Shown piece after piece: positions 9,951 through 21,227 of a stretch of DNA of 64,000 nt. The first letter of the stretch is position 1. Each line of letters starts with the position of its first letter. The DNA comes from an archaeon (GTDB taxonomy: Archaea > Nanobdellota > Nanobdellia > Woesearchaeales > UBA9642), in assembly GCA_043806035.1 (NCBI GenBank), contig JAZDHK010000023.1:1-64000 (forward strand), read 5' to 3'. The position numbers were made by a program, and so were the translations under genes. Below the pieces are notes generated by a model. That model was not told where the DNA came from. It did not search any database and saw only the letters and a list, made by a program, of their open reading frames with translations.

Positions 9951-11243
9951 GTGACGCATGTCGGCATTGAGCACATTCATGCATTGCAAATTCTTGACAG
10001 CAGAGGCAATCCAACGGTAGAAGTGGTCGTCGGTGCAAGGACATTCCATGGACGGGCGTGTGTGCCATCAGGCGCGAGCACGGGAACGCACGAGGCAGTG
10101 GAGTTACGAGATAACGGCAAGACGTATCAAGGCAAGAGCGTCAACAAAGCAGTCAAGAATGTCAACACGCGCATCCGTTCTGCCCTTCTTGGCGAGAACG
10201 TTCTCAACCAACGAAAGCTCGACAACTCGATGATCCTGCTGGACAGGACGCACAACAAGAGCAAGCTCGGCGCCAACGCCATCCTCGGCGTGAGCCTGGC
10301 CAGTGCCCGATGTGCTGCAGACAATATCGGCCTGCCCTTGCACGAGTACATCATGCATCTCCTGCCCGAGCAATACCTTTCAAAAGAGCCAGTATTGCCT
10401 TTGCCTTTTGCCAATGTCATCAACGGCGGCAAGCATGCGCAAAACAATATGAGCATCCAAGAGTTCATGATTGTGCCTGTCGGCGCAAATTCATTTGCCG
10501 AGGCGACACGCATGGTGAGCGAAACATATCATGTGCTCAAAAAGATTATCATCGAGAAATACGGCAAGAGTTCAGCCAGCGTCGGTGATGAAGGAGGATT
10601 TGCCCCTGCCGTGAAGACTGTCGAGGAGGCGCTCGATCTGTTGACGGAAGCCATCAAGAAGGCGGGCTATCAGAAGAGCATGCGCATAGCATTGGACTGT
10701 GCGGCGAGCGAATTCTACAAAGACGGCATGTATCTCGTGAACAATCGGCAATACACGGCAGACGGCCTTGCGCGGTATTATGAGCAGCTCATCAGCACGT
10801 ATGCTATCATCAGCATCGAGGACCCTTTTGCTGAGGACGATTTTGTTGCATTCATGCACTTCACGGAGAAAGTAGGTAAGACCATCCAGGTAGTGGGTGA
10901 TGATCTGCTCGTGACAAACATCGAACGCATCAAGAAGGCAGTCAATCGCGGCTGGTGCAATGCCCTGCTGCTGAAAGTCAACCAGATAGGCACGCTGACA
11001 GAATCCATCGATGCGGCATTGTACTGCAAGCAGTACAAGTTCGGCGTCATGGTAAGCCATCGGAGCGGAGAGACGGAAGACGCATTCATCTCCGATTTGG
11101 CAGTAGGTCTGAAGTGCGGCATGATCAAGCTTGGCGCTCCCTGCCGCGGCGAGCGGACGGCAAAATACAATGAGCTGCTCCGCATCGAGGACCAATACAA
11201 GGGATGCAGGCTTGCGAAGTTCGATCTGGTGAAAGGAAGATAA
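9951..11243 (+). CDS. eno: Enolase
   Basis: DSRGNPTVEV, PSGASTG, GDEGGF, LLKVNQIGT, SHRSGET. Confidence 0.98.
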   Translation: MTHVGIEHIHALQILDSRGNPTVEVVVGARTFHGRACVPSGASTGTHEAVELRDNGKTYQGKSVNKAVKNVNTRIRSALLGENVLNQRKLDNSMILLDRTHNKSKLGANAILGVSLASARCAADNIGLPLHEYIMHLLPEQYLSKEPVLPLPFANVINGGKHAQNNMSIQEFMIVPVGANSFAEATRMVSETYHVLKKIIIEKYGKSSASVGDEGGFAPAVKTVEEALDLLTEAIKKAGYQKSMRIALDCAASEFYKDGMYLVNNRQYTADGLARYYEQLISTYAIISIEDPFAEDDFVAFMHFTEKVGKTIQVVGDDLLVTNIERIKKAVNRGWCNALLLKVNQIGTLTESIDAALYCKQYKFGVMVSHRSGETEDAFISDLAVGLKCGMIKLGAPCRGERTAKYNELLRIEDQYKGCRLAKFDLVKGR

Positions 11244-12025: not shown

Positions 12026-12826
12026 TTACCCTATGTAATTGGTGGCCATTTTTTCGGTGAGTACCGGCTTGAATTTTGATTTTGGAGGAGTGTTGCCTTG
12101 CAGCTGGTCCTCGACGAAGGTAATCTCCTTGTCCAGATCCTTGAAGCGCACACCCAACGTGTATTTTTTGTCGAGCAGGGAGAGGATGGCCCGTGCTCCT
12201 TTCAGCCCAAGATAAAGTGGGTGCCCGAATGTCTCTGCAAGCAACGTTATTGCGGGAAGTTTTCGTCGTTGCGCGTTTCCCAGGAGAACTCCCGTTACGC
12301 CCATGATGGGTCCGACGATGCCATAAATGCTCTTTTCTGCAGTAGTGTTCTTGGTGAAGCTAGCAACGCTTGCCTTGTCCGTTCCCGAACAAAATACGTG
12401 CGGCTGCTCGGGAACGTGGTCAAGACCGATGCCCCCAATGGTGATGATGAGCTTGGCATGCCACTCGTCGAGAAGGGTGAGTGTTTCCTCGCAGAGCGTG
12501 TAGCAGGCTTCCTCTCTTACGGGTTGCGTGTCCCCTGTCATGAACAAGAAATCTTGCTTGCCAATGCGTTTGTGGTAGAGCGCTATGCCTGGTGTGCTGA
12601 TGAGGTTGTTTTCGCGAATGAACACGGCGCTGGGCAGGTGGTGGCTGAAGAAGCTGACTATTTTTTTTGCTTTGGTGCTCTCAATGAGCATGTCCATGAC
12701 AATCTTGCCCACATTGCCGATGCCGGGAAGTCCCTCTATGAGAATGGGCTTGTCAGGAGTGCTTTTGCCATGGCGGATGATGCGCCAATCACTGCATTTT
12801 TTTTGCTCGTCTCCGATATTCACCAT
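12026..12826 (-). CDS. PAC2-family proteasome assembly chaperone (start uncertain)
   Basis: LIEGLPGIGNVGK, GDTQP, ITIGG, IMGVTGVLLG, C-terminal HbYX-like NYIG. Conserved position after nop10. Confidence 0.9.
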   Translation of the reverse strand: MVNIGDEQKKCSDWRIIRHGKSTPDKPILIEGLPGIGNVGKIVMDMLIESTKAKKIVSFFSHHLPSAVFIRENNLISTPGIALYHKRIGKQDFLFMTGDTQPVREEACYTLCEETLTLLDEWHAKLIITIGGIGLDHVPEQPHVFCSGTDKASVASFTKNTTAEKSIYGIVGPIMGVTGVLLGNAQRRKLPAITLLAETFGHPLYLGLKGARAILSLLDKKYTLGVRFKDLDKEITFVEDQLQGNTPPKSKFKPVLTEKMATNYIG

Positions 12827-12941
12827 ACTTGTCCTCGGGGCTGAATTTTGGTGGTAGTGTGGGAATCCGTTTGTTGCCGCAGGGGCACGCTTCCTGCAGG
12901 GCATAGCTCTTGCAGGCAGGGCATTTGAGGATGTGTTTCAT
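12789..12941 (-). CDS. nop10: H/ACA RNP protein Nop10 (50 aa, absent from the ORF track)
   Basis: Translated by hand: MKHILKCPACKSYALQEACPCGNKRIPTLPPKFSPEDKYGEYRRRAKKMQ. Has the PPKFSPEDKYG signature and lies between aIF2a and PAC2. Confidence 0.93.
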   Translation of the reverse strand: MKHILKCPACKSYALQEACPCGNKRIPTLPPKFSPEDKYGEYRRRAKKMQ

Positions 12942-13717
12942 GACTCGGCCCGGGCGAAGGCATATTTTATTTTTTTCGCTTTTGTCTGTGCTTCCAAGAA
13001 CTCCTGCATATTGATCAATGTTTTTTCTGCTTGCTTGTAGTCGTTGTCCGTTATCTTGAATGAATATTGGCCGCCGCCGAGGTAGCGTATGGTGCAGTTG
13101 GGAATGTGCTGCTCGGTGTCTGCAAGCAGTGTTTTGATGAGCGTGACACCTCCTGTTTCGTACGTTTGCAGGGTGATTGTGCCGTGCATCTCAATCACTT
13201 TTGGCCGCATTTTCTCTGCGATGATTCGCTTGAGCGGTTCATAGTAGTCAGAAGGTATGCCGAGATCTTCGACGATGAGCTCTCCCGTGGATACTTGTTC
13301 GAATGCCTGGAAGGTGTACTGGTAGTTCTTGAATAGGATGGTGCTGATGGTCTGATAGACGTCTTTGACGTCTTTCTTGAGCTCGTGCGCGAGCAGCTCG
13401 ATGATTTTTTCTGCGCGCTGTTCCTGCTTGAGCTCGGACGCTTTTTCTCGACGGTGTCCTTCGCTTACCCTGCGCAGGGAGAGGTCGATGTGGCCTTTCT
13501 CTCTGTTGATGTCGAGCACTTTGCAGATGATGACCTTGCCTTCGGTGACGAAGTCTCTGATGTTTCTGATGCGCCCTGCAGAAATCTCTGAGATGTGGAT
13601 CATCCCTTGCGTGCCGTACTCTTCCAAATGGACGAAGACGCTGTTGTATTGAATGCTGGTTACTTTGCACAGGGTGAGTTCGCCGATTTCTGGGATGCCT
13701 GTCCTGTGCAGTAACAT
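12938..13717 (-). CDS. eif2a: Translation initiation factor 2 subunit alpha
   Basis: S1 domain with GMIHISEIS, KGHIDLSLRRV. Confidence 0.95.
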   Translation of the reverse strand: MLLHRTGIPEIGELTLCKVTSIQYNSVFVHLEEYGTQGMIHISEISAGRIRNIRDFVTEGKVIICKVLDINREKGHIDLSLRRVSEGHRREKASELKQEQRAEKIIELLAHELKKDVKDVYQTISTILFKNYQYTFQAFEQVSTGELIVEDLGIPSDYYEPLKRIIAEKMRPKVIEMHGTITLQTYETGGVTLIKTLLADTEQHIPNCTIRYLGGGQYSFKITDNDYKQAEKTLINMQEFLEAQTKAKKIKYAFARAES

Positions 13718-13903
13718 TTATTCTAGCACCTCAAGAATTCTTGCCCTGACTCTGCACTTGCCGCCTGTCGGCTCCGCAATCACTTTCTCGCAGACGAGGC
13801 AGGTGACGTTCGTCGAACTCTTGCCGAATGCGATTTGTTCGTTCTTGCATTTTGGACAGCGTACTTTGATGAATTTGCTCGTTGATGCATTGATGTTGCT
13901 CAT
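13718..13903 (-). CDS. rps27e: 30S ribosomal protein S27e
   Basis: SKFIKVRCPKCKNEQ..CLVC..EPTGGK. Confidence 0.96.
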   Translation of the reverse strand: MSNINASTSKFIKVRCPKCKNEQIAFGKSSTNVTCLVCEKVIAEPTGGKCRVRARILEVLE

Positions 13904-14241
13904 ACTGCCACCTCACTGCCATGAATCTCAGTCGATTTATAAAGCTATTGGCGAGGTGCAGGATGATTATTGTCATGCCTGCTGTCCTGGTGCAGCTTCG
14001 TTTTGTTTTTGTTGGTCTTAACCGTGATACGGGTACTATTCTAAAATAAAAAAATATTTAAGATGTGGTCTGTTCTCGAAGGCGGTGTTTGTGGTGTGTT
14101 TGCACATGTTTCTGCAGTTGCAGTGCATGTTTTGTGTGATGTCTGGCGTGACAAAATTTTTTATTCACCAAAAGGTGGTAGCAATCATACGGGTATATAG
14201 TAACGTTTATGCACCGTGTTAACTATCGATGGAGTGAGATC

Positions 14242-15252
14242 ATGACTGATGCCCCTGCCAAAAACCTGTACGACCTTCTCGAAGTCAGCCCTCGCGCGCG
14301 GCCAGAAGTTATTACTGCAGCATACAAGTCGCTCATGAACATTTATCACCCGGATAAGCCAACAGGTGATGCACGTGTCGCTAAGTCGCTCAACCAGGCA
14401 AAGGATATTCTGCTCAACAAGGACAAACGCCAAGAGTACGATGTGCAGCGAGAAAATCTCGTCGGCACGACACTCGGGGAGTACACCCTCCTCGGGCTCA
14501 TTGCAGAAGGCGGATTTGGTAAGACGTACAAGGCAAAGCACACCTTGCTCAATGAGCTTGTCTGCATCAAGCATGCCCACTACGTTTCCCCTCAAGATGA
14601 AGAAATTCTCCTCAACGAGGCGAAGGCGATTTGGGACTTGCGGCATTTCAGCATCCCTGCCGTGCGCAACATCCTCAAGATGGACGATGGTAGCCTTGCT
14701 CTGGTCATGAGCTACGTTCCAGGACCGACGCTCGAGCAGATCATCAAGAAAGTGGACAGGCTTGAGCCTGAGCATGTCGCCTGGATAACTGAGAGATCGT
14801 TAAACGCACTCAAGTACTTGCACTACAATGGCGTCGTGCACGGCGATGTTAAACCGCAGAATATCATCATCCAGCCAGAGAACCATACTATCGTACTTGT
14901 CGATTACGGGCTTTCGGTCATACGTCCCTCACCAACGAAGAGCACCAGCCCAGGCTTCACGCCATACTTTGCAGCGCCTGAACAGATTCATGGCAAAACC
15001 TTGCTTCCCGAGACAGACTTTTACGGATTAGGCATGACCATGATCTATGCGCTCGGAGGAGATATCGAGAAGAAACTTGTTCCCAAGAACGTCCCTGATT
15101 CTTTGTGCTCGTTCATCAAGAGCCTCATTGTCTATGATGTCCTGAAACGACCCAATTGGGAGAAAGAAGATTTGGCAGATACCTTGAAGGACATACGCAT
15201 GAAAGAATTCGGCAGGTTGCGTTCAGGCATGAAGCCCATACCTGGCCTGTGA
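14242..15252 (+). CDS. DnaJ(J)-domain-fused Hanks-type Ser/Thr protein kinase
   Basis: LYDLLEV..AYKSL..YHPDK (J-domain HPD), then EGGFG, VCIK, HGDVKPQN, DYG, APE. Confidence 0.92.
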   Translation: MTDAPAKNLYDLLEVSPRARPEVITAAYKSLMNIYHPDKPTGDARVAKSLNQAKDILLNKDKRQEYDVQRENLVGTTLGEYTLLGLIAEGGFGKTYKAKHTLLNELVCIKHAHYVSPQDEEILLNEAKAIWDLRHFSIPAVRNILKMDDGSLALVMSYVPGPTLEQIIKKVDRLEPEHVAWITERSLNALKYLHYNGVVHGDVKPQNIIIQPENHTIVLVDYGLSVIRPSPTKSTSPGFTPYFAAPEQIHGKTLLPETDFYGLGMTMIYALGGDIEKKLVPKNVPDSLCSFIKSLIVYDVLKRPNWEKEDLADTLKDIRMKEFGRLRSGMKPIPGL

Positions 15253-15262
15253 GGGAAAAACC

Positions 15263-15376
15263 ATGAGCATGAAAAAAGCACATGAGACAAGAGGTCTAGC
15301 GTGCATCGTGAACACGCTTGCCTATCTTTGCGCACCCAACCCTATCATTGAAAGAACGAATGAGGTGAAACCATGA
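15263..15376 (+). CDS. Putative 37-aa microprotein (absent from the ORF track)
   Basis: MSMKKAHETRGLACIVNTLAYLCAPNPIIERTNEVKP. GAGGG SD. Fills the gap, and its stop overlaps the vWA start as ATGA. Confidence 0.5.
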   Translation: MSMKKAHETRGLACIVNTLAYLCAPNPIIERTNEVKP

Positions 15377-16347
15377 GTGAATCAGGAGACTATGATCCGG
15401 GGCCATGGAGGGGGCATGATTTTGCATCCGCGAGAAGAAGCTATGACGTGCACGTCGGCAGGAGCTACGATGATGCCAAGGCAGCGAGAAAGGATACGAA
15501 AGCAGTCCTTGAACAACGTGTCAAGACGGACAGCAGCGCAGCGCTCGTCATTGCATGCGATGTCACGGGTTCTATGGGTGATTGGCCTGCGACGATGTTC
15601 TCCAAGCTGCCCTACCTTGAGCATGAGGCGAAGGAATATCTTGGGGATGATCTCGAAATATGCTTTTCTGCAGTCGGTGATGCGTACTCTGACAGTTATC
15701 CGTTGCAAGTGCGTCCCTTCACTAAGGGGACTGATTTGAAAAAGCGCATGGAAGAGCTCATTATCGAGGGCAATGGTGGAGGCCAGACCTCGGAAAGTTA
15801 CGACCTTGCAGCACTGTACTTCCTCCACAATGCAGAAATGAACAAAGCAATCCATCCCGTGCTGATTTTCATCGGCGATGAAGGACTCTATGATTTTGTG
15901 GACAAGCAGCAAGCAAAGAATGTAGCCAAGATCGATCTGGACAAACGGCTCCCGACAAAGGAATTGTTCGATGATCTCAAGAACAAGTATTCTGTCTACT
16001 TGATCCGCAAACCGTACGAGTCGTCAGGAGATAGGATGAGTTCGACGGACATGAGGATTTACAAGCAGTGGGAAACCCTGTTGGGTCCTGACAGAATTTC
16101 CACACTCCCCGAGGCGGGACGGGTTGTTGACGTCATCTTCGGCATCCTTGCAAAAGAGACCAACAGAGTGGATTACTTCCATCAGGAGCTCATCGAACGC
16201 CAGAAGCCGGAACAGGTCGCTGTCGTCATGAAGTCGCTGGAAAGTGTCCACCGACCAGACCCTTTGAAAGCAGATCACCTGCTTCGTTCAGGTAAGTCCG
16301 TAACGATACGAAAGGATGTGGGAAAGCCGAGCAAGGAGTTGCTATGA
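15373..16347 (+). CDS. von Willebrand factor A (vWA) domain protein
   Basis: MIDAS-like DVTGSMG, VGDA, GNGGGQTSESY, IFIGDE. Confidence 0.85.
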   Translation: MSESGDYDPGPWRGHDFASARRSYDVHVGRSYDDAKAARKDTKAVLEQRVKTDSSAALVIACDVTGSMGDWPATMFSKLPYLEHEAKEYLGDDLEICFSAVGDAYSDSYPLQVRPFTKGTDLKKRMEELIIEGNGGGQTSESYDLAALYFLHNAEMNKAIHPVLIFIGDEGLYDFVDKQQAKNVAKIDLDKRLPTKELFDDLKNKYSVYLIRKPYESSGDRMSSTDMRIYKQWETLLGPDRISTLPEAGRVVDVIFGILAKETNRVDYFHQELIERQKPEQVAVVMKSLESVHRPDPLKADHLLRSGKSVTIRKDVGKPSKELL

Positions 16348-17315
16348 AACTTTTTAATTTTAAGCGTCCAGTAGCCCGACTCCCTCCTGCGGAGTTGGAG
16401 CTGCTCGTGACGTTGTGGCCGAGCTTCCCGCACTTCAAGCGGTTTGCCCAAGATAATAGACTGAGCGCCATTCGCCTGAATACGGCGATGGTGGAGAATT
16501 ATGAGCTGACAAGCGAGTTTGCACTGGCGAAAAGCATTCCTACCGTACCTTTGTATTTCGACATCAAGGGGAGGCAGTTGCGCATCGAGGAATCCATCAT
16601 CAAGCCGGATCGGCTCGAGCTCATCCTCAACCATCCTATTGCCGTGCAAACGCCGACGATGGTGCTCTTCAAGGCAGGGGCAGACTATGCATTGCTCAAC
16701 GAGGTGAAGGATGGCAAGCATCTCATCTTTGATGGAGGGCCTGAATATGTTGTCAAGAAGGGAGAGAGCCTGCACATCCGCCATCCCAGTCTTGAAGTGC
16801 AGGGACAGCAGTTCACGCCGTACGAGCTGCAGAAGATTGACACGGCGAAGAAGGCAGGATTCAGAAGATACTTTCTTTCGTATACGGAATCGCAGCGTGA
16901 CGTCGATGAGTTCAGAAGCTACATCGGCAAGGATGCAGAGCTCATGCTGAAGATCGAGAGCAAGAAAGGCCTTGCCTATGTCGAGAATGAGTTCAGAAAG
17001 AATGGCAACACCTATCTCATGGCGGCGCGAGGGGACTTGTTCGTTGAGGTGGACAAGCCGCACGACATCCTCCCTGCAATGCGGGCAATTCTTGCAAAGG
17101 ATCCTGAGGCTGCGGTCGGCTCGAGAATTCTCCTCTCAACCATCCACGATCCCGTGCCATCCTGTGCTGACCTTTCAGAAATCGCATGGCTGTACGACAT
17201 AGGTTTCAGGAAGATGATGCTCTGCGATGAGCTCTGCCTGAAAGAGGAATTGCTGAGCCGGGCAGTGAATGTCTTCGAGGCATTCAGGGAGACGTACTGC
17301 AACACCAAACATTAA
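16344..17315 (+). CDS. Pyruvate-kinase-like TIM barrel protein lacking the C-terminal domain
   Basis: RLN, DIKGRQLR, LKIES, MAARGDL, P.PSCAD, MMLCDE map onto PK motifs. Only 323 aa. ATGA overlap with the vWA gene. Confidence 0.8.
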   Translation: MKLFNFKRPVARLPPAELELLVTLWPSFPHFKRFAQDNRLSAIRLNTAMVENYELTSEFALAKSIPTVPLYFDIKGRQLRIEESIIKPDRLELILNHPIAVQTPTMVLFKAGADYALLNEVKDGKHLIFDGGPEYVVKKGESLHIRHPSLEVQGQQFTPYELQKIDTAKKAGFRRYFLSYTESQRDVDEFRSYIGKDAELMLKIESKKGLAYVENEFRKNGNTYLMAARGDLFVEVDKPHDILPAMRAILAKDPEAAVGSRILLSTIHDPVPSCADLSEIAWLYDIGFRKMMLCDELCLKEELLSRAVNVFEAFRETYCNTKH

Positions 17316-17340
17316 TAAAAGACCATTACGTACGTGCAGT

Positions 17341-17952
17341 ATGGTGAAACGACAACTTCTGCTCATTCATGGTGGCATGACGTTCCGACGAAAGAAAGAC
17401 TACGTGCAGTATTTGAAGACGAGAAAGATAGCTGTCATGAAAAAAAGAAAGTGGAGCGGTGAGTATCTTGACAAAAAGCTCGGCAAGGATTTCAAGATCA
17501 TCCGTCCTCGGATGCCGCTGTGCGAGAATGCAAAATATGCTGATTGGAAGATCCACTTTGAGCGGCATATCCCGTTTCTGAGAAACAATGTCGTCCTGCT
17601 CGGAAGATCGCTCGGGGGGATATTCCTTGCAAAATACTTGTCGGAGAACAAATTCCCCAAGAAACTAGCTGCAGTGTACTTGATCTGCCCTTCATTCGAT
17701 CGTACGCATTCTGTCGAGACATTAACGGGTGGATTCACGTTACGATCCGATCTCTCTCTCATCGGAAAGAACTGCAAAAAACTCCATTTGTTCTTCTCTG
17801 CAGATGATGTTATCGTCCCGCCATATCATGCAGAACAGTACAGGAAGAAACTGCCTTGGGCGAGCATCACTGTCTTTGAGAGCAAGAATGGACATTTCAG
17901 TGTAGAGACATTTTCAGAACTCGTACGATTATTGAAGAAAGATTTGAACTAG
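17341..17952 (+). CDS. RBBP9/YdeN-family alpha/beta hydrolase
   Basis: LIHGG, PRMP, GRSLGG nucleophile elbow, SADDVIVP, GHF. Confidence 0.85.
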   Translation: MVKRQLLLIHGGMTFRRKKDYVQYLKTRKIAVMKKRKWSGEYLDKKLGKDFKIIRPRMPLCENAKYADWKIHFERHIPFLRNNVVLLGRSLGGIFLAKYLSENKFPKKLAAVYLICPSFDRTHSVETLTGGFTLRSDLSLIGKNCKKLHLFFSADDVIVPPYHAEQYRKKLPWASITVFESKNGHFSVETFSELVRLLKKDLN

Positions 17953-18266
17953 ACCAACTCGACTTTCTTAGCTCTAATCCCAGAATTTTGCACGTGCGTC
18001 TTCTTGCATTCCTTGCACGTAAACCTGAAATCTGTTTTTTTGCTGAGCTTTTTGCCGGACATCTTCCTGCTCGCTATGGGTGGTCGGGAGAAAGCGCCCA
18101 TGTTGCCATGTCCTCGCCACGAGCCTCGTGCCCTAAGTCTGTGCTTCGATGCGTGGCTGAGCGGATGCGCCGCATTCTTTCCTTTCTTTTTTGCAATACT
18201 GATCGTGTGCTCGGTATGCTTGTTGCAGAAGGGGCAATGCCGCTTCGTCGTCTTTGGTTTTTTCAC
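17949..18266 (-). CDS. rpl44e: 50S ribosomal protein L44e
   Basis: HCPFCNKHTEH, KLSKKTD.RFTCKECKK. Confidence 0.93.
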   Translation of the reverse strand: MKKPKTTKRHCPFCNKHTEHTISIAKKKGKNAAHPLSHASKHRLRARGSWRGHGNMGAFSRPPIASRKMSGKKLSKKTDFRFTCKECKKTHVQNSGIRAKKVELV

Positions 18267-18311
18267 GATGCGTTGGAAACTACAGGGGCTTTATAAAGGT
18301 TATGCTTGCTT

Positions 18312-18932
18312 TCAGGATGGAGCCGCTTGCTCTGGGCTCAGTTCGGCAAGTCCCTTGCTCACGAGAATATTTGCAATGACCGGAGGGAGCTCTGCCGTAT
18401 CGCCCGGCTGGTAGGGACCGTGCACTTTGCTGTTTTTGCCCAAGAATTGGGGAACTGCTTTGAGAAAGGTGACCGCGGTGTTATCATCCTTTTGCTCTTG
18501 CACAGGGGTGTTCTCCGAGGTTGGCGTCTTTCTTTTTATGTCCAGCATTGCCTGCAGGACGTCCTTGCGTGTATTCGTGAGCACATCCACGAGTTCATTA
18601 TAGAGCGCCTGTTCTTCGGTGAGCAGTGAGGACATGTCCAGAACCATGTCGTCGCTGAGCCGTGCCTTGTGCAGGGCCATGTTTGCAATTTTTCTCTCTC
18701 GGCGCTCATAGATTTCTTTGATGACTTTTTTTATGTTTTGCAGTTGCAGTTTTGCCTGGTCGTCGTCCATGCCTGCCGAGACTTTCTGCTGGATCATCTC
18801 TTGCTTTTGCTCAAGGTAGGTGATGACGTCATCGAAGAATGTGGAATCGAGCTTCTGTAACTCGTCCTTGTTCTTTTCCCTGCGGAGAATGTCGAACAAA
18901 CTCTCGTACGTGATGCGTATTTCTTCTCCCAT
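18312..18932 (-). CDS. GINS family DNA replication protein (Gins51/15-type)
   Basis: LRREK..ELQKLDSTFF, IYERRERKI, C-terminal GPYQPGD..LP..ANILV.KGLAE. Lies upstream of rpl44e as is typical. Confidence 0.85.
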   Translation of the reverse strand: MGEEIRITYESLFDILRREKNKDELQKLDSTFFDDVITYLEQKQEMIQQKVSAGMDDDQAKLQLQNIKKVIKEIYERRERKIANMALHKARLSDDMVLDMSSLLTEEQALYNELVDVLTNTRKDVLQAMLDIKRKTPTSENTPVQEQKDDNTAVTFLKAVPQFLGKNSKVHGPYQPGDTAELPPVIANILVSKGLAELSPEQAAPS

Positions 18933-19411: not shown

Positions 19412-20044
19412 ATGGCATTCAAGAAAGGAGATTTCATAGAATTGGATTACACAGGCAGGCTGAAAGAGTCTGGCAAGGTCTTTGATACGACGCTGAAAGA
19501 GGTTGTGGAAAAGGAAGATCTTCCCAAGCAGGAAACGTACGAGCCTGCCATCATCATTCTTGGTGAGCATCAGCTCCTACCTGGACTGGAGGAATTCTTG
19601 GAAGGGAAGGAGCCAGGGACATATGCCGTCGAGCTAACGTCTGAGAAGGCGTTCGGGAAGAAGGACGCAAAGCTGCTCAGGCTCATTCCCATGAAGCTGT
19701 TCAAGAAGGAGAACATCTCTCCTTTTCCGGGGCTTGACGTCACGGTTGACAACAAGCACGGCATTATCAGGACGGTGAACGGCGGCAGGGTCATCGTCGA
19801 CTTCAACCATCCCTTATCAGGGCAGGATGTTGCCTACGATCTTGATGTCAAGCGCGTTGTCGATGACAAGAAGGAGCAGGTGCAGGCCGTGCTCAAGACC
19901 ATGGGACTTTCTGCAGACGTAACCTTGGAGGAGAACAAGGCAGTGATCACCCTCAAGCATGAGTTGACGAAGGAGCTTGAGGAACAGCTTGCTAAGCCCA
20001 TTGAGCGGCTTGCTGCAGTGCAGGTCGAGTTCAAGAAGCAATGA
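19412..20044 (+). CDS. slyD: FKBP-type peptidyl-prolyl isomerase (SlyD-like)
   Basis: LDYTG, VFDTT, PGLEE, AFG, VDFNHPLSG. Confidence 0.93.
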   Translation: MAFKKGDFIELDYTGRLKESGKVFDTTLKEVVEKEDLPKQETYEPAIIILGEHQLLPGLEEFLEGKEPGTYAVELTSEKAFGKKDAKLLRLIPMKLFKKENISPFPGLDVTVDNKHGIIRTVNGGRVIVDFNHPLSGQDVAYDLDVKRVVDDKKEQVQAVLKTMGLSADVTLEENKAVITLKHELTKELEEQLAKPIERLAAVQVEFKKQ

Positions 20045-20123
20045 GTTTTCATTCTCCCGTAACGAAACCTATATATACTCGTACGTTTATTCTCTGGACA
20101 GAGGTAAAAAACCGGGTGGCATT

Positions 20124-21227
20124 ATGGAGACAATCATCAAGACTGCTACTTCTCTTGTAAAACGAGAGCCTAGTCCGAGAAAGGTGAATCCAGCAGACAA
20201 GGAACTTGAAGAGCTCCTGCAGAACCAGCGGGCGACGATAAAAGTCATCGGCTGCGGCGGCGGCGGCAATAACACGATCAATAGGATCTCTGAAGTTGGT
20301 ATCGTCGGTGCCGAAACCATAGCGATTAATACGGATGCGCAGCACTTGCTCTACACGACAGCCGATAAGAAGATCCTTATCGGCAAGGAATTGACGAAAG
20401 GATTGGGTGCAGGCGGCATTCCCAAAGTTGGTGAGGAGGCTGCGCGAGAGAGTGAGCACGACTTACGGAATGCCTTGCAAGGAGCAGATATGGTCTTCAT
20501 CACCTGTGGTTTAGGAGGAGGGACGGGCACAGGCTCCGTTCCCGTCATCGCGGAAATTGCCAAAAAGACAGGTGCGCTTACTGTGGGAGTCGTTACCTTG
20601 CCGTTCAGCATGGAAGGAAAAAGAAGGATCGATAATGCGCTCATTGGCCTTGAAGGCCTGCAAAAGAATGTCGACACCATCATCGTCATCCCCAATGACA
20701 AGCTCATCTCTCTTGCTCCTGACCTGCCACTGCATACGGCATTCAAGGTCGCTGACGAAATCCTGACGAACAGCGTTAAGGGCATTGCAGAGTTGGTAAC
20801 GAAAGCAGGACTGGTCAATTTGGACTTTGCCGATATCAGAACAGTTATGGGCAATGGAGGCGTTGCGCTCATCGGTGTAGGTGAGAGCAATACGGAGAAC
20901 AGGGCGACAGAAGCGGTTGAACGCGCTATTCTGAATCCTTTGCTTGACGTCGACATTACTGGCGCGAACGGTGCACTGATCAACGTTGTCGGTGGTCCAG
21001 ACATGACTCTCAACGAGGCGAAGCTGGTTGTTGAGACAATCTGCAGGAAGCTCGACGAGGATGCTCGTATCATATGGGGGGCGCAATTGTCTGACGATCT
21101 CGAGGGGACAGTGCGCGTGATGCTCATCGTTACCGGAGTGCGCAGCAGTCAGATTCTTGGCAAGAAATCTCCCGAGGACAAGAAGGAAGCGTTCAAGGAC
21201 GAATTGGGCATTGAGTTCGTTGAATAG
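20124..21227 (+). CDS. ftsZ: Cell division protein FtsZ
   Basis: VIGCGGGGNN, INTD, GLGGGTGTG, NLDFAD. Confidence 0.98.
   Translation: METIIKTATSLVKREPSPRKVNPADKELEELLQNQRATIKVIGCGGGGNNTINRISEVGIVGAETIAINTDAQHLLYTTADKKILIGKELTKGLGAGGIPKVGEEAARESEHDLRNALQGADMVFITCGLGGGTGTGSVPVIAEIAKKTGALTVGVVTLPFSMEGKRRIDNALIGLEGLQKNVDTIIVIPNDKLISLAPDLPLHTAFKVADEILTNSVKGIAELVTKAGLVNLDFADIRTVMGNGGVALIGVGESNTENRATEAVERAILNPLLDVDITGANGALINVVGGPDMTLNEAKLVVETICRKLDEDARIIWGAQLSDDLEGTVRVMLIVTGVRSSQILGKKSPEDKKEAFKDELGIEFVE

What the first reader, a model, noticed from the sequence alone, without database searches (positions are those of the whole stretch)
14242..17315. Candidate new signalling/stress or defence module: J-domain Ser/Thr kinase + microprotein + vWA + truncated pyruvate-kinase barrel
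Seen: four co-oriented genes with ATGA overlaps at 15373-15376 and 16344-16347. The kinase has an intact J-domain HPD and intact catalytic motifs (HGDVKPQN, DYG, APE). The vWA has DVTGS. Known: J-domains recruit Hsp70/DnaK, and vWA plus Ser/Thr kinase pairs occur in TerY-type triads, normally with a PP2C phosphatase. Here there is no phosphatase and a PK-like phosphotransferase is present instead. Inference: a chaperone-coupled phosphorylation switch in which the PK-like enzyme is the effector or the phosphoryl/ATP supplier. I do not recognise this combination as a described system.
Basis: partly seen in the sequence, partly recalled or inferred. Interest (0 to 1): 0.85.

Follow-up and report, generated by a model that had tools for sequence, protein, structure and literature searches.

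The report
Phage-type kinase, vWA, pyruvate-kinase-like module
A conserved three-gene block, of a kind also carried by phages, was inserted into a ribosomal-protein operon of this small archaeon, and it pairs a chaperone-recruiting protein kinase and a metal-dependent adaptor protein with a cut-down pyruvate kinase that probably serves ATP or NAD upkeep.

Summary
All four ORFs, both ATGA overlaps and the quoted motifs are in the sequence. Only three genes form a conserved unit: J-domain Ser/Thr kinase, MIDAS-type vWA protein (fold Z 15, no Pfam hit) and a pyruvate-kinase paralogue with A and B domains but no C domain.

- **Conservation:** the triad keeps its order and strand in 16 of 22 DPANN loci, 14 of 15 genome-collection loci (including CPR bacteria) and 21 of 59 IMG/VR phage loci.
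- **Micro-ORF:** the 37-aa ORF is found only in this window. It weakly resembles the C-terminus of a fourth gene present in one subfamily.
- **Insertion:** the 4-kb block splits the L44e–S27e operon, which is intact in 11 of 11 relatives.
- **Core pair:** kinase plus vWA is the constant part. Its third partner is either the PK-like enzyme or a divergent PurA-like adenylosuccinate synthetase (35 of 59 phage loci; Bxz1-type mycobacteriophages).
- **NAD link:** in all 12 J-less archaeal loci the triad sits inside a NAD salvage operon.
- **Copies:** this genome holds all three flavours.

My reading is a phage-type regulatory pair controlling a purine-nucleotide phosphotransfer enzyme. It is not a TerY triad and not a recognised defence system. 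The mechanism is inferred. The literature searches found no description.

The parts
13904..17948 (.). Inserted block, about 4.05 kb, lying between the ribosomal protein genes S27e (13718-13903, -) and L44e (17949-18266, -)
   Evidence: In 11 of 11 same-family relatives L44e and S27e are adjacent, in the order GINS-L44e-S27e-eIF2alpha-Nop10(-PAC2). No flanking direct or inverted repeats were found. GC content is not anomalous.
14242..15252 (+). J-domain Ser/Thr protein kinase, 336 aa, subfamily A
   Evidence: Pfam DnaJ E 1.4e-12 and Pkinase E 6.1e-35. HPD, HGDVKPQN, DYG and APE are present. Conserved tail FGR..S.MKPIPGL.
15263..15376 (+). 37-aa ORF, window-specific; possibly a relic or miniature of the C-terminal motif of the 'G4' gene
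   Evidence: No family match. Absent from the other loci examined. It is the only hit of a G4 profile among 1395 six-frame open segments of the window, at E 0.004 with the next best at 1.5. It shares the motif NTLAYLC.P.P.
15373..16347 (+). vWA-fold protein with a MIDAS-like D-x-T-x-S motif, 324 aa, with a disordered K/S-rich C-terminal tail
   Evidence: Model pLDDT 85.4. Integrin beta I-like/vWA fold at Z 15.0 and E 7e-8. Invariant D63, T65, S67, G102-D103, E132, G135-G136, E141 and G168-D169-E170. 1810 representative clusters match at E<=1e-3.
16344..17315 (+). Pyruvate-kinase paralogue, 323 aa, with the A barrel and B lid but no C domain
   Evidence: Model pLDDT 93.1. Pyruvate kinases match at E 8e-18, TMq 0.70-0.76. 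The motifs R-x-N, D-x-K-G-x-x-x-R, K-I-E and A-R-G-D align with the genome's canonical PKs. The genome has two canonical PKs elsewhere.
17269..17952 (+). Alpha/beta serine hydrolase, 227 aa, co-inserted cargo that is not a conserved member
   Evidence: Pfam Ser_hydrolase E 1.2e-7. It overlaps the PK-like 3' end by 47 nt. No homologue was found beside the triad in 15 cellular or 59 viral loci.

Best explanation
The locus is a horizontally acquired copy of a widespread three-gene module of a kind carried by phages. Two things are shown. The invariant core is a (J-domain) protein-kinase-fold protein followed by a MIDAS-type vWA protein. The third gene is always a purine-nucleotide phosphotransfer enzyme, here a pyruvate-kinase paralogue without the allosteric and tetramerisation C domain, and elsewhere a divergent PurA-like adenylosuccinate synthetase or both. 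The rest is inferred. The PK-like enzyme uses phosphoenolpyruvate to rephosphorylate ADP or GDP, acting as a private NTP-regenerating step for adenylate and NAD salvage. Having lost the usual allosteric domain, it is controlled in trans. The vWA protein binds it, or binds the kinase, through its metal site and tails. The kinase phosphorylates the vWA protein or the enzyme to switch that binding. The J-domain brings in DnaK to remodel or release the complex. In phages the module would serve nucleotide-pool takeover. In nucleotide-scavenging DPANN and CPR cells it would serve salvage.
For: Order-conserved triad in 16 of 22 DPANN loci (4 more are cut by contig ends), 14 of 15 genome-contig loci and 21 of 59 IMG/VR loci. 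In 35 of 59 viral loci a PurA-like gene (Pfam PF00709, E 1e-42 to 1e-67 in the 8 scanned) takes the PK-like gene's place; L066, L085 and the genome's own C1 copy carry both. Beyond kinase, vWA, PK-like and PurA-like, no neighbour family recurs in more than 8 of 59 viral loci. All 12 subfamily-B loci lie inside NAPRTase - nicotinamidase-like - NAD synthase - NUDIX - NMNAT-like - kinase - vWA - (G4) - PK-like - (ADP-ribosylglycohydrolase) - NAD-kinase-like. PK catalytic motifs are retained and the fold is PK A+B. The two canonical PKs elsewhere show this is not the glycolytic enzyme. J-domain with HPD and DnaK in the genome. The own triad-linked PurA-like is 34-40% identical to phage PurA-likes against 27% to the genome's canonical PurA. 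Phage carriage: 220 GenBank phage records; Catera gp249-gp252; 5 contigs of 318-485 kb without ribosomal protein L2 and with CheckV completeness 79-100%. The insertion into the L44e-S27e operon is shown.
Against: No activity, binding or expression was measured, and every step of the switch is inference. In the PurA-type branch the kinase has lost the catalytic Asp and Lys and the glycine loop, so phosphorylation cannot be essential to the core pair. Subfamily B lacks the J-domain and 4 of 17 cellular subfamily-A kinases lack HPD, so DnaK coupling is not universal either. The window copy is not next to NAD or purine genes. Phage loci show no recurrent NAD genes. K+-site residues of PK (the S and H of the FSHG motif) are changed, so the substrate may not be PEP and ADP. 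The NAD-operon link rests on one Pfam-scanned representative per neighbour family.
Confidence: 0.4

Rival explanations
1. Dedicated chaperone and assembly system. The J-(pseudo)kinase and the vWA protein form an Hsp70 co-chaperone and adaptor pair whose job is to fold, assemble or activate the partner enzyme (PK-like or PurA-like). This would be analogous to MoxR-vWA maturation pairs, with DnaK taking the place of the AAA+ ATPase. Kinase activity would be secondary.
For: The J-domain HPD is kept in 9 of 10 aligned PurA-type proteins even though their kinase catalytic residues are lost. The vWA fold with an invariant MIDAS-like motif is shown. The PK-like protein lacks the C domain, which from recalled knowledge mediates tetramer contacts in PKs. 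vWA is described as a Mg2+-dependent peptide-binding chaperone in passages of PMC9503650.
Against: Subfamily B has no J-domain yet keeps an apparently active kinase, the vWA protein and the PK-like enzyme. Subfamily-A kinases keep all catalytic motifs under conservation, which argues that phosphotransfer matters there.
Confidence: 0.2
2. Phage counter-defence module. It rebuilds ATP, NAD or adenylate pools that host immunity depletes, and the cellular copies are domesticated or prophage-derived.
For: It is carried by isolated phages and huge phages. In the vWA tree, cellular subfamily-A copies are intermixed with viral ones (quick tree, midpoint root). The archaeal subfamily is linked to NAD salvage genes. 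Phage NAD+ reconstitution pathways are an established class (abstracts of PMC13464706).
Against: Phage loci carry no recurrent NAD genes. The genes differ from NARP1, NARP2 and NARP3 as those abstracts define them. There are no infection data. The window copy sits in a housekeeping operon, not in a prophage.
Confidence: 0.2
3. Anti-phage defence system of the host. It would be a kinase-based sensor in the manner of Stk2 or PD-T4-6, with the PK-like enzyme as effector.
For: The kinase domain matches the PADLOC models mad6 (7.4e-41) and PD-T4-6. Distribution is patchy at 16 of 301 genomes with none of 10 same-family genomes. There is evidence of horizontal insertion. This 1.5-Mb genome holds three copies.
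Against: The PADLOC hits cover only the generic kinase domain, and the vWA, PK-like and micro-ORF proteins have none. NCBIfam MAD6 scores 96 bits against a cut-off of 460. The module is itself phage-borne in 220 phage records. One subfamily lies in a NAD salvage operon. No nuclease, protease, pore or NADase effector is present.
Confidence: 0.08
4. TerY-P-type stress-signalling triad in which the PK-like enzyme replaces the PP2C phosphatase.
For: vWA plus Ser/Thr kinase adjacency.
Against: There is no PP2C in the locus and no PP2C_2 match in the 93.7%-complete genome. The vWA protein matches no Pfam VWA family. No Ter genes were seen in any locus. The partner enzyme alternates with PurA-like.
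Confidence: 0.04

Closest known systems
TerY-P triad (vWA TerY + Ser/Thr kinase + PP2C phosphatase; recalled from Anantharaman, Iyer and Aravind 2012, not read here)
   Same: An adjacent MIDAS-type vWA protein and Hanks-type Ser/Thr kinase, presumed to form a phosphorylation-controlled binding switch.
   Different: No phosphatase. A J-domain is fused to the kinase. The third gene is a PK-like or PurA-like enzyme. The vWA protein lies outside the Pfam VWA families. The system is phage-borne.
Canonical pyruvate kinase (EC 2.7.1.40)
   Same: A-domain TIM barrel plus B lid. The R-x-N, D-x-K-G-x-x-x-R, K-I-E and A-R-G-D motifs align.
   Different: No C domain. Pfam scores 27.1 bits (cut-off 30) and the NCBIfam pyruvate kinase model scores 41.6 (cut-off 432). 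K+-site residues are changed. It is always linked to the kinase and vWA genes. The genome has two true PKs. Public records nevertheless name homologues 'pyruvate kinase'.
Bxz1-type (Bixzunavirus) mycobacteriophage block, e.g. Catera gp249 'kinase' - gp250 - gp251 - gp252 'PurA-like adenylosuccinate synthetase'
   Same: A homologous J-domain kinase-fold protein and a homologous vWA protein (window vWA against these phages: 32% identity over 61% of the query, E about 1e-18), in the same gene order.
   Different: The kinase is a pseudokinase. The partner is PurA-like rather than PK-like. gp250 is annotated only as hypothetical.
MoxR AAA+ / vWA chaperone pairs (CbbQO, NorQD, RavA-ViaA; recalled)
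   Same: A vWA adaptor working with an ATP-driven chaperone on a specific enzyme client.
   Different: The ATPase would be DnaK recruited through a J-domain. There is no MoxR gene in the window, and an AAA gene sits upstream only in L066.
ArnA/ArnB with the ArnC and ArnD kinases of Sulfolobus (function recalled; the ArnAB structure 8s05 appears at Z 11.7)
   Same: An archaeal vWA protein working with Ser/Thr kinases.
   Different: No FHA partner was seen. The biological context (archaellum regulation) and the gene order both differ.
Phage NAD+ reconstitution pathways NARP1, NARP2 and NARP3 (abstract of PMC13464706)
   Same: Phage-borne metabolite-pool modules. The archaeal subfamily B sits among NAD salvage genes.
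   Different: The gene sets share nothing: ADP-ribose recycling (NARP1), nicotinamide to NAD+ via NMN ligation (NARP2) and a PnuC-like transporter with a NadR-like enzyme (NARP3), against kinase, vWA and PK-like or PurA-like here.

Membership tests
Hanks-type Ser/Thr protein kinase | Pfam Pkinase above the gathering score, with the catalytic HxD..K..N loop, DFG-type Asp, VAIK Lys and APE motif | tested here: met
   PF00069 at 121.3 bits against 31.7. HGDVKPQN, DYG, the C-I-K Lys and APE are invariant or nearly invariant in 29 sequences.
J-domain (Hsp40) protein | J-domain with the HPD tripeptide, and an Hsp70 partner in the organism | tested here: met
   PF00226 at 47.9 bits against 27.8, with HPD present. 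HSP70 is on contig C39 at 760.7 bits.
J-domain (Hsp40) protein | Stimulation of DnaK ATPase | not testable with these tools
   This needs biochemistry.
vWA / MIDAS domain | vWA Rossmann-like fold | tested here: met
   VIA Z 15.0, rmsd 3.4, 196 residues aligned to the integrin beta I-like domain. Foldseek E 7e-8.
vWA / MIDAS domain | MIDAS D-x-S-x-S motif, and membership of a Pfam VWA family | tested here: inconclusive
   The variant D-x-T-x-S is invariant. No Pfam VWA family matches the window protein, and 2 of 35 relatives reach VWA_CoxE at E 0.019. No PDB chain matches the family profile by sequence. Metal binding was not tested.
TerY-P triad | PP2C phosphatase encoded with the vWA and the kinase | tested here: not met
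   No phosphatase in the locus. PF13672 gives no match in the 93.7%-complete genome. PF00481 and PF07228 were not searched.
Pyruvate kinase | A+B domain fold and catalytic residues | tested here: met
   Foldseek E 8e-18, TMq 0.70-0.76. Motifs align with the two canonical PKs of the genome.
Pyruvate kinase | C-terminal regulatory domain, and family score cut-offs | tested here: not met
   The protein has 323 aa and ends after the A domain. Pfam scores 27.1 against 30, and NCBIfam scores 41.6 against 432.
Known anti-phage defence systems (PADLOC-DB 2.0) | Matches to the system's specific component models | tested here: not met
   Only the generic kinase domain matches (mad6, PD-T4-6, MkoA). The vWA, PK-like, micro-ORF and hydrolase proteins give 0 families. 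NCBIfam MAD6 scores 96 against 460.
PurZ / Z-genome cluster (for the linked PurA-like genes) | NCBIfam PurZ model at its cut-off | tested here: not met
   30-57 bits against a cut-off of 300 in the 5 PurA-likes scanned. They are also far below the PurA equivalog cut-offs.
MoxR-vWA chaperone system | An adjacent MoxR-type AAA+ ATPase | tested here: not met
   None in the window block. An AAA gene lies upstream only in L066.

The most novel reading that the evidence does not exclude
A previously unrecognised system shared by phages, DPANN archaea and CPR bacteria. An Hsp70-recruiting kinase or pseudokinase and a MIDAS adaptor form a portable controller that is plugged onto dedicated purine-nucleotide enzymes: a PEP-driven NDP-rephosphorylating PK paralogue and/or a divergent PurA-like ligase. 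This would give viruses and nucleotide-scavenging episymbionts private control of ATP, GTP and NAD supply, possibly as a counter to NAD- or ATP-depleting immunity. A bolder variant is that the PK-like and PurA-like enzymes act on a non-canonical nucleotide.
Probability: 0.3. Interest if true: 0.85.

Novelty: new variant of a known kind. Interest (0 to 1): 0.72.

Why it matters
- **Unstudied phage genes:** the work ties together genes present in more than 200 isolated phages, including the Bxz1-type phages of Mycobacterium smegmatis, as well as huge phages, DPANN archaea and CPR bacteria. It turns 'hypothetical' proteins such as Catera gp250 into a testable module.
- **Annotation risk:** public records name the PK-like paralogues 'pyruvate kinase'. 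Metabolic reconstructions of DPANN and CPR genomes may therefore credit or double-count a glycolytic step that these proteins may not perform.
- **A new regulatory arrangement:** an enzyme that has lost its allosteric domain appears to be controlled in trans by a kinase, an adaptor and Hsp70.
- **Gene flow:** the module links phages with ultra-small episymbionts that have the same nucleotide-scavenging lifestyle.
- **Tractability:** phages of M. smegmatis mc2155 carry a homologous block, so the module can be studied at the bench.

Tried and rejected
- **Complex prediction:** kinase, vWA and PK-like were folded together with alignments A3, A1 and A2, with vWA as the scored partner. The result was no verdict (median score 0.17, mark 0.32, runs 0.00, 0.51 and 0.17). 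It counts neither for nor against binding.
- **Fusions:** a search for longer proteins containing the vWA gave one weak hit (594 aa, 33% coverage), so there is no Rosetta-stone support.
- **DnaK co-occurrence:** HSP70 is in 248 of 301 genomes of the phylum sample and in the 15 strong triad holders. That is too common to discriminate. The 248 include the unpublished genomes G243 and G244, and no other claim rests on them.
- **Insertion ends:** no terminal repeats flank the insertion.
- **Sequence profile against PDB:** 0 hits at E<=1.
- **Micro-ORF as a conserved member:** rejected.
- **Alpha/beta hydrolase as a member:** rejected.
- **Ordinary glycolytic PK:** rejected, because the genome has two canonical PKs.
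- **PurZ identity of the linked PurA-likes:** rejected.
- **G4 gene:** no Pfam or NCBIfam family matches. The Atlas gives only a lead to BPL_N / amidotransferase-like clusters at 0.90.
- **vWA tree:** the careful search did not finish in 300 s, so the quick IQ-TREE tree (SH-aLRT support, midpoint root) was used. The direction of transfer is therefore not established.
- **Literature:** eight searches and passage look-ups in PMC10892097 and PMC9503650 found no description of the module. Only listings, abstracts and matched passages were seen, and supplements were closed. Subscription-journal papers are not covered. The TerY-P, MoxR-vWA, ArnAB, DnaK-motif and PK-residue statements are recalled.
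- **Not used:** The look-up of sequencing runs and read laying, so there is no expression evidence.


Full report
**1. The observation**

The region holds four co-oriented ORFs on the + strand:
- 14242-15252 (336 aa; a longer frame starts at 14209)
- 15263-15376 (37 aa)
- 15373-16347 (324 aa)
- 16344-17315 (323 aa)

The two ATGA start/stop overlaps sit at 15373-15376 and 16344-16347 when the bases are read directly. Purine-rich Shine-Dalgarno-like motifs precede each start, including 14242.

The first protein has a J-domain with HPD (Pfam DnaJ, 47.9 bits against a cut-off of 27.8). It also has a complete Hanks-type kinase domain (Pkinase, E 6.1e-35) with HGDVKPQN, DYG and APE.

The third protein matches no Pfam, NCBIfam or PADLOC family. 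Its AlphaFold model (pLDDT 85.4) is nevertheless a vWA domain. The closest structures are integrin beta I-like domains, at Foldseek E 7e-8 and VIA Z 15.0, rmsd 3.4 over 196 residues. D63-x-T65-x-S67 is invariant in 35 relatives.

The fourth protein folds with pLDDT 93.1 as the A barrel plus B lid of pyruvate kinase (E 8e-18, TMq 0.70-0.76) and has no C domain.

**2. What is conserved**

The genome (G000, 1.5 Mb, 93.7% complete) carries two more paralogous sets, on contigs C26 and C1.

| Collection | Loci examined | Result |
|---|---|---|
| DPANN phylum sample | 301 genomes | 16 have the vWA protein (one only weakly); none of 10 same-family genomes do |
| DPANN vWA loci | 22 | 16 show kinase, vWA and PK-like in that order and strand; 4 are cut by contig ends; 1 lacks the kinase; 1 is a weak vWA hit only |
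| Genome collection | 15 | 14 have the full triad, including Saccharibacteria, Falkowbacteria and a Bdellovibrionota bin |
| IMG/VR | 59 | 21 have the full triad |

Five of the IMG/VR triad records are 318-485 kb. They lack ribosomal protein L2 and have CheckV completeness of 79-100%. One is classed as a provirus and four as linear. The best GenBank phage hit of the window vWA is a 485-kb uncultured phage (44% identity, full length).

The vWA family has 1810 representative clusters at E<=1e-3 in 1.84 billion proteins, 1388 at E<=1e-10 and 521 at E<=1e-30. Every named homologue among the 120 listed is 'hypothetical' or 'uncharacterised'.

The 37-aa ORF and the downstream alpha/beta hydrolase are not found beside the triad elsewhere.

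**3. The micro-ORF**

Some J-less loci carry a fourth gene of about 290 aa, here called G4, between the vWA and PK-like genes. It has no Pfam or NCBIfam family. G4 appears in seven J-less loci, and in five of the 12 J-less loci that were later fetched with wide flanks.

G4's C-terminal motif (LNTLAYLC.P.P) recurs in the window's micro-ORF. A G4 profile searched against all 1395 six-frame open segments of the window finds only that segment, at E 0.004, with the next best at 1.5. I read the micro-ORF as a relic or a miniature of G4, and not as a core member. Whether it is expressed is unknown.

**4. An insertion**

In 11 of 11 same-family relatives the order is (GINS-)L44e-S27e-eIF2alpha-Nop10(-PAC2), with L44e and S27e adjacent. 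In this genome about 4.05 kb lie between them on the opposite strand (13904-17948). This stretch holds the kinase, the micro-ORF, the vWA gene, the PK-like gene and the hydrolase. There are no terminal repeats and no GC anomaly. The block was therefore acquired in this lineage.

**5. The third partner alternates**

In 35 of 59 viral loci the kinase-vWA pair is followed by a PurA-like adenylosuccinate synthetase (PF00709, E 1e-42 to 1e-67 in the 8 scanned) instead of the PK-like gene. L066 and L085 have both.

The same arrangement occurs in isolated phages. tblastn of a viral-type vWA hits 220 GenBank phage records: 201 Mycobacterium, 10 Rhizobium and 6 Vibrio. In Catera and Capablanca the order is Ser/Thr kinase, hypothetical protein (the vWA), a small ORF, then 'PurA-like adenylosuccinate synthetase'.

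The genome's own C1 copy is pseudokinase, vWA, PK-like, PurA-like. That PurA-like protein is 34-40% identical to phage PurA-likes but only 27% identical to the genome's canonical PurA on C5. These PurA-likes reach neither the PurA nor the PurZ cut-offs. No other neighbour family recurs in more than 8 of 59 viral loci.

**6. Kinase states**

- **Subfamily A** (this window, CPR bacteria, huge phages) has a J-domain plus intact catalytic motifs. HPD is present in 13 of 17 full-length cellular and 18 of 20 full-length viral proteins.
- **Subfamily B** has no J-domain but has intact motifs.
- **The PurA-linked branch** (10 proteins aligned, including Catera gp249 and the own C1 copy) keeps the J-domain (HPD in 9 of 10). 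It has lost the catalytic Asp and Lys (H-G-A-x-x-P) and the glycine loop, so these are pseudokinases. The catalytic-loop pattern was found in none of the other PurA-type kinases.

**7. NAD context**

All 12 subfamily-B loci fetched with wide flanks lie in one operon:

NAPRTase – isochorismatase/nicotinamidase-like – NAD synthase – NUDIX – NMNAT-like – kinase – vWA – (G4) – PK-like – (ADP-ribosylglycohydrolase) – NAD-kinase-like

This rests, with one representative per family scanned. The NAD-kinase assignment is weak for some members. The four other loci, three of subfamily A and the C1 copy, are not in this operon.

**8. The PK-like enzyme**

Aligned with the genome's two canonical PKs (404.5 and 315.3 bits), it keeps R-x-N, D-x-K-G-x-x-x-R, K-I-E and A-R-G-D, and has a Ser at the Thr proton-donor position. 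It changes the S and H of the FSHG motif and lacks the C domain. The residue roles are recalled.

Homologues number 1396 at E<=1e-3, and where they carry a name they are called 'pyruvate kinase' or 'hypothetical protein'.

Three of the four above-cut-off Pkinase matches in the genome are triad kinases. No PP2C_2 phosphatase was found in the genome.

**9. Phylogeny**

A quick IQ-TREE of 83 vWA proteins, midpoint-rooted with SH-aLRT support, separates:
- a phage PurA-type clade (32 rows, support 100)
- the two triad-plus-PurA copies (98)
- subfamily B (12 rows, 100)
- subfamily A (36 rows, 97)

Within subfamily A, huge-phage and CPR copies are intermixed. Fifteen of the 16 archaeal copies fall in one subclade of 16 rows (98), together with one viral copy (L056). 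This is compatible with phage-mediated spread. Without a reliable root the direction is not shown.

**10. Interpretation**

*Shown:* this is a conserved, mobile, phage-associated module. Its core is a kinase-fold protein plus a vWA protein. Its third member is a purine-nucleotide phosphotransfer enzyme.

*Inferred:* the PK-like enzyme regenerates NTP from PEP for adenylate and NAD salvage. It is controlled in trans by the vWA protein, the kinase and DnaK.

Because the PurA branch uses pseudokinases and subfamily B lacks the J-domain, neither phosphorylation nor Hsp70 recruitment can be the single universal mechanism. The chaperone-and-assembly rival and the counter-defence rival both remain open. 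A host defence role and TerY-P membership are poorly supported.

**11. Novelty**

Eight literature searches and two passage look-ups found no description. Kinase-vWA pairing as such is known (the TerY-P triad and ArnB, both recalled). The new elements are:
- the J-domain fusion
- the PK-like or PurA-like partner
- the NAD-operon embedding
- the distribution across phages, DPANN archaea and CPR bacteria

Noticed in passing
window 12026-13903 and 17949-18932 (- strand): The conserved archaeal operon GINS51 - L44e - S27e - eIF2alpha - Nop10 - PAC2 is split between L44e and S27e by the inserted block. It is intact in 11 of 11 relatives.
   Followed up: yes
G000 contig C26 (L002 / L109): A second copy in the same genome. 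It is the J-less subfamily-B triad inside a NAD salvage operon (NAD synthase with a CN-hydrolase domain, NUDIX, NMNAT-like, NAD kinase).
   Followed up: yes
G000 contig C1 (L003 / L115): A third copy: J-domain pseudokinase - vWA - PK-like - divergent PurA-like. The PurA-like is closer to phage PurA-likes than to the genome's canonical PurA on C5.
   Followed up: yes
L103 (Mycobacterium phage Catera 148907-152623) and L104 (Capablanca): Bxz1-type phages carry kinase-like gp249, unannotated vWA gp250, 88-aa gp251 and PurA-like gp252. RefSeq labels gp252 '2-aminooxy adenylosuccinate synthetase', although it scores only 57 bits against the PurZ cut-off of 300.
   Followed up: partly
L013, L015, L016, L018, L021, L022, L023 (gene between vWA and PK-like): The G4 family of about 290 aa has no Pfam or NCBIfam match. 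It ends in a K/S-rich tail similar to the tail of the vWA protein. The Atlas gives a lead to BPL_N / amidotransferase-like clusters at 0.90.
   Followed up: partly
window 16344-17315 and its homologues: Public records name these C-domain-less paralogues 'pyruvate kinase', which could mislead metabolic reconstructions of DPANN and CPR genomes.
   Followed up: partly
L030 4002-5948: A Nanoarchaeota single-cell genome has two tandem vWA paralogues between the kinase and the PK-like gene.
   Followed up: no
L047, L051, L056 (between kinase and vWA): Three viral loci have 1.3-1.9 kb of extra coding sequence inserted between the kinase and vWA genes. Its content was not identified.
   Followed up: no
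L027 2496-3437, L028 1690-2649, L032 2854-3798: A PhoU plus MazE/AbrB-like regulator gene lies upstream of three subfamily-A triads.
   Followed up: no
vWA residues 299-324 (window 16267-16344) and kinase residues about 320-336: Both proteins have conserved short C-terminal tails. The vWA ends K-[ST]-x-x-L-[LIV] in most of 35 sequences. Subfamily-A kinases end S-x-M-K-P-I-P-G-[LF]. These could be docking or phosphorylation motifs.
   Followed up: no
window 9951-11243 and 19977-21227: Enolase and FtsZ flank the wider region. The window is ordinary DPANN chromosomal context.
   Followed up: no
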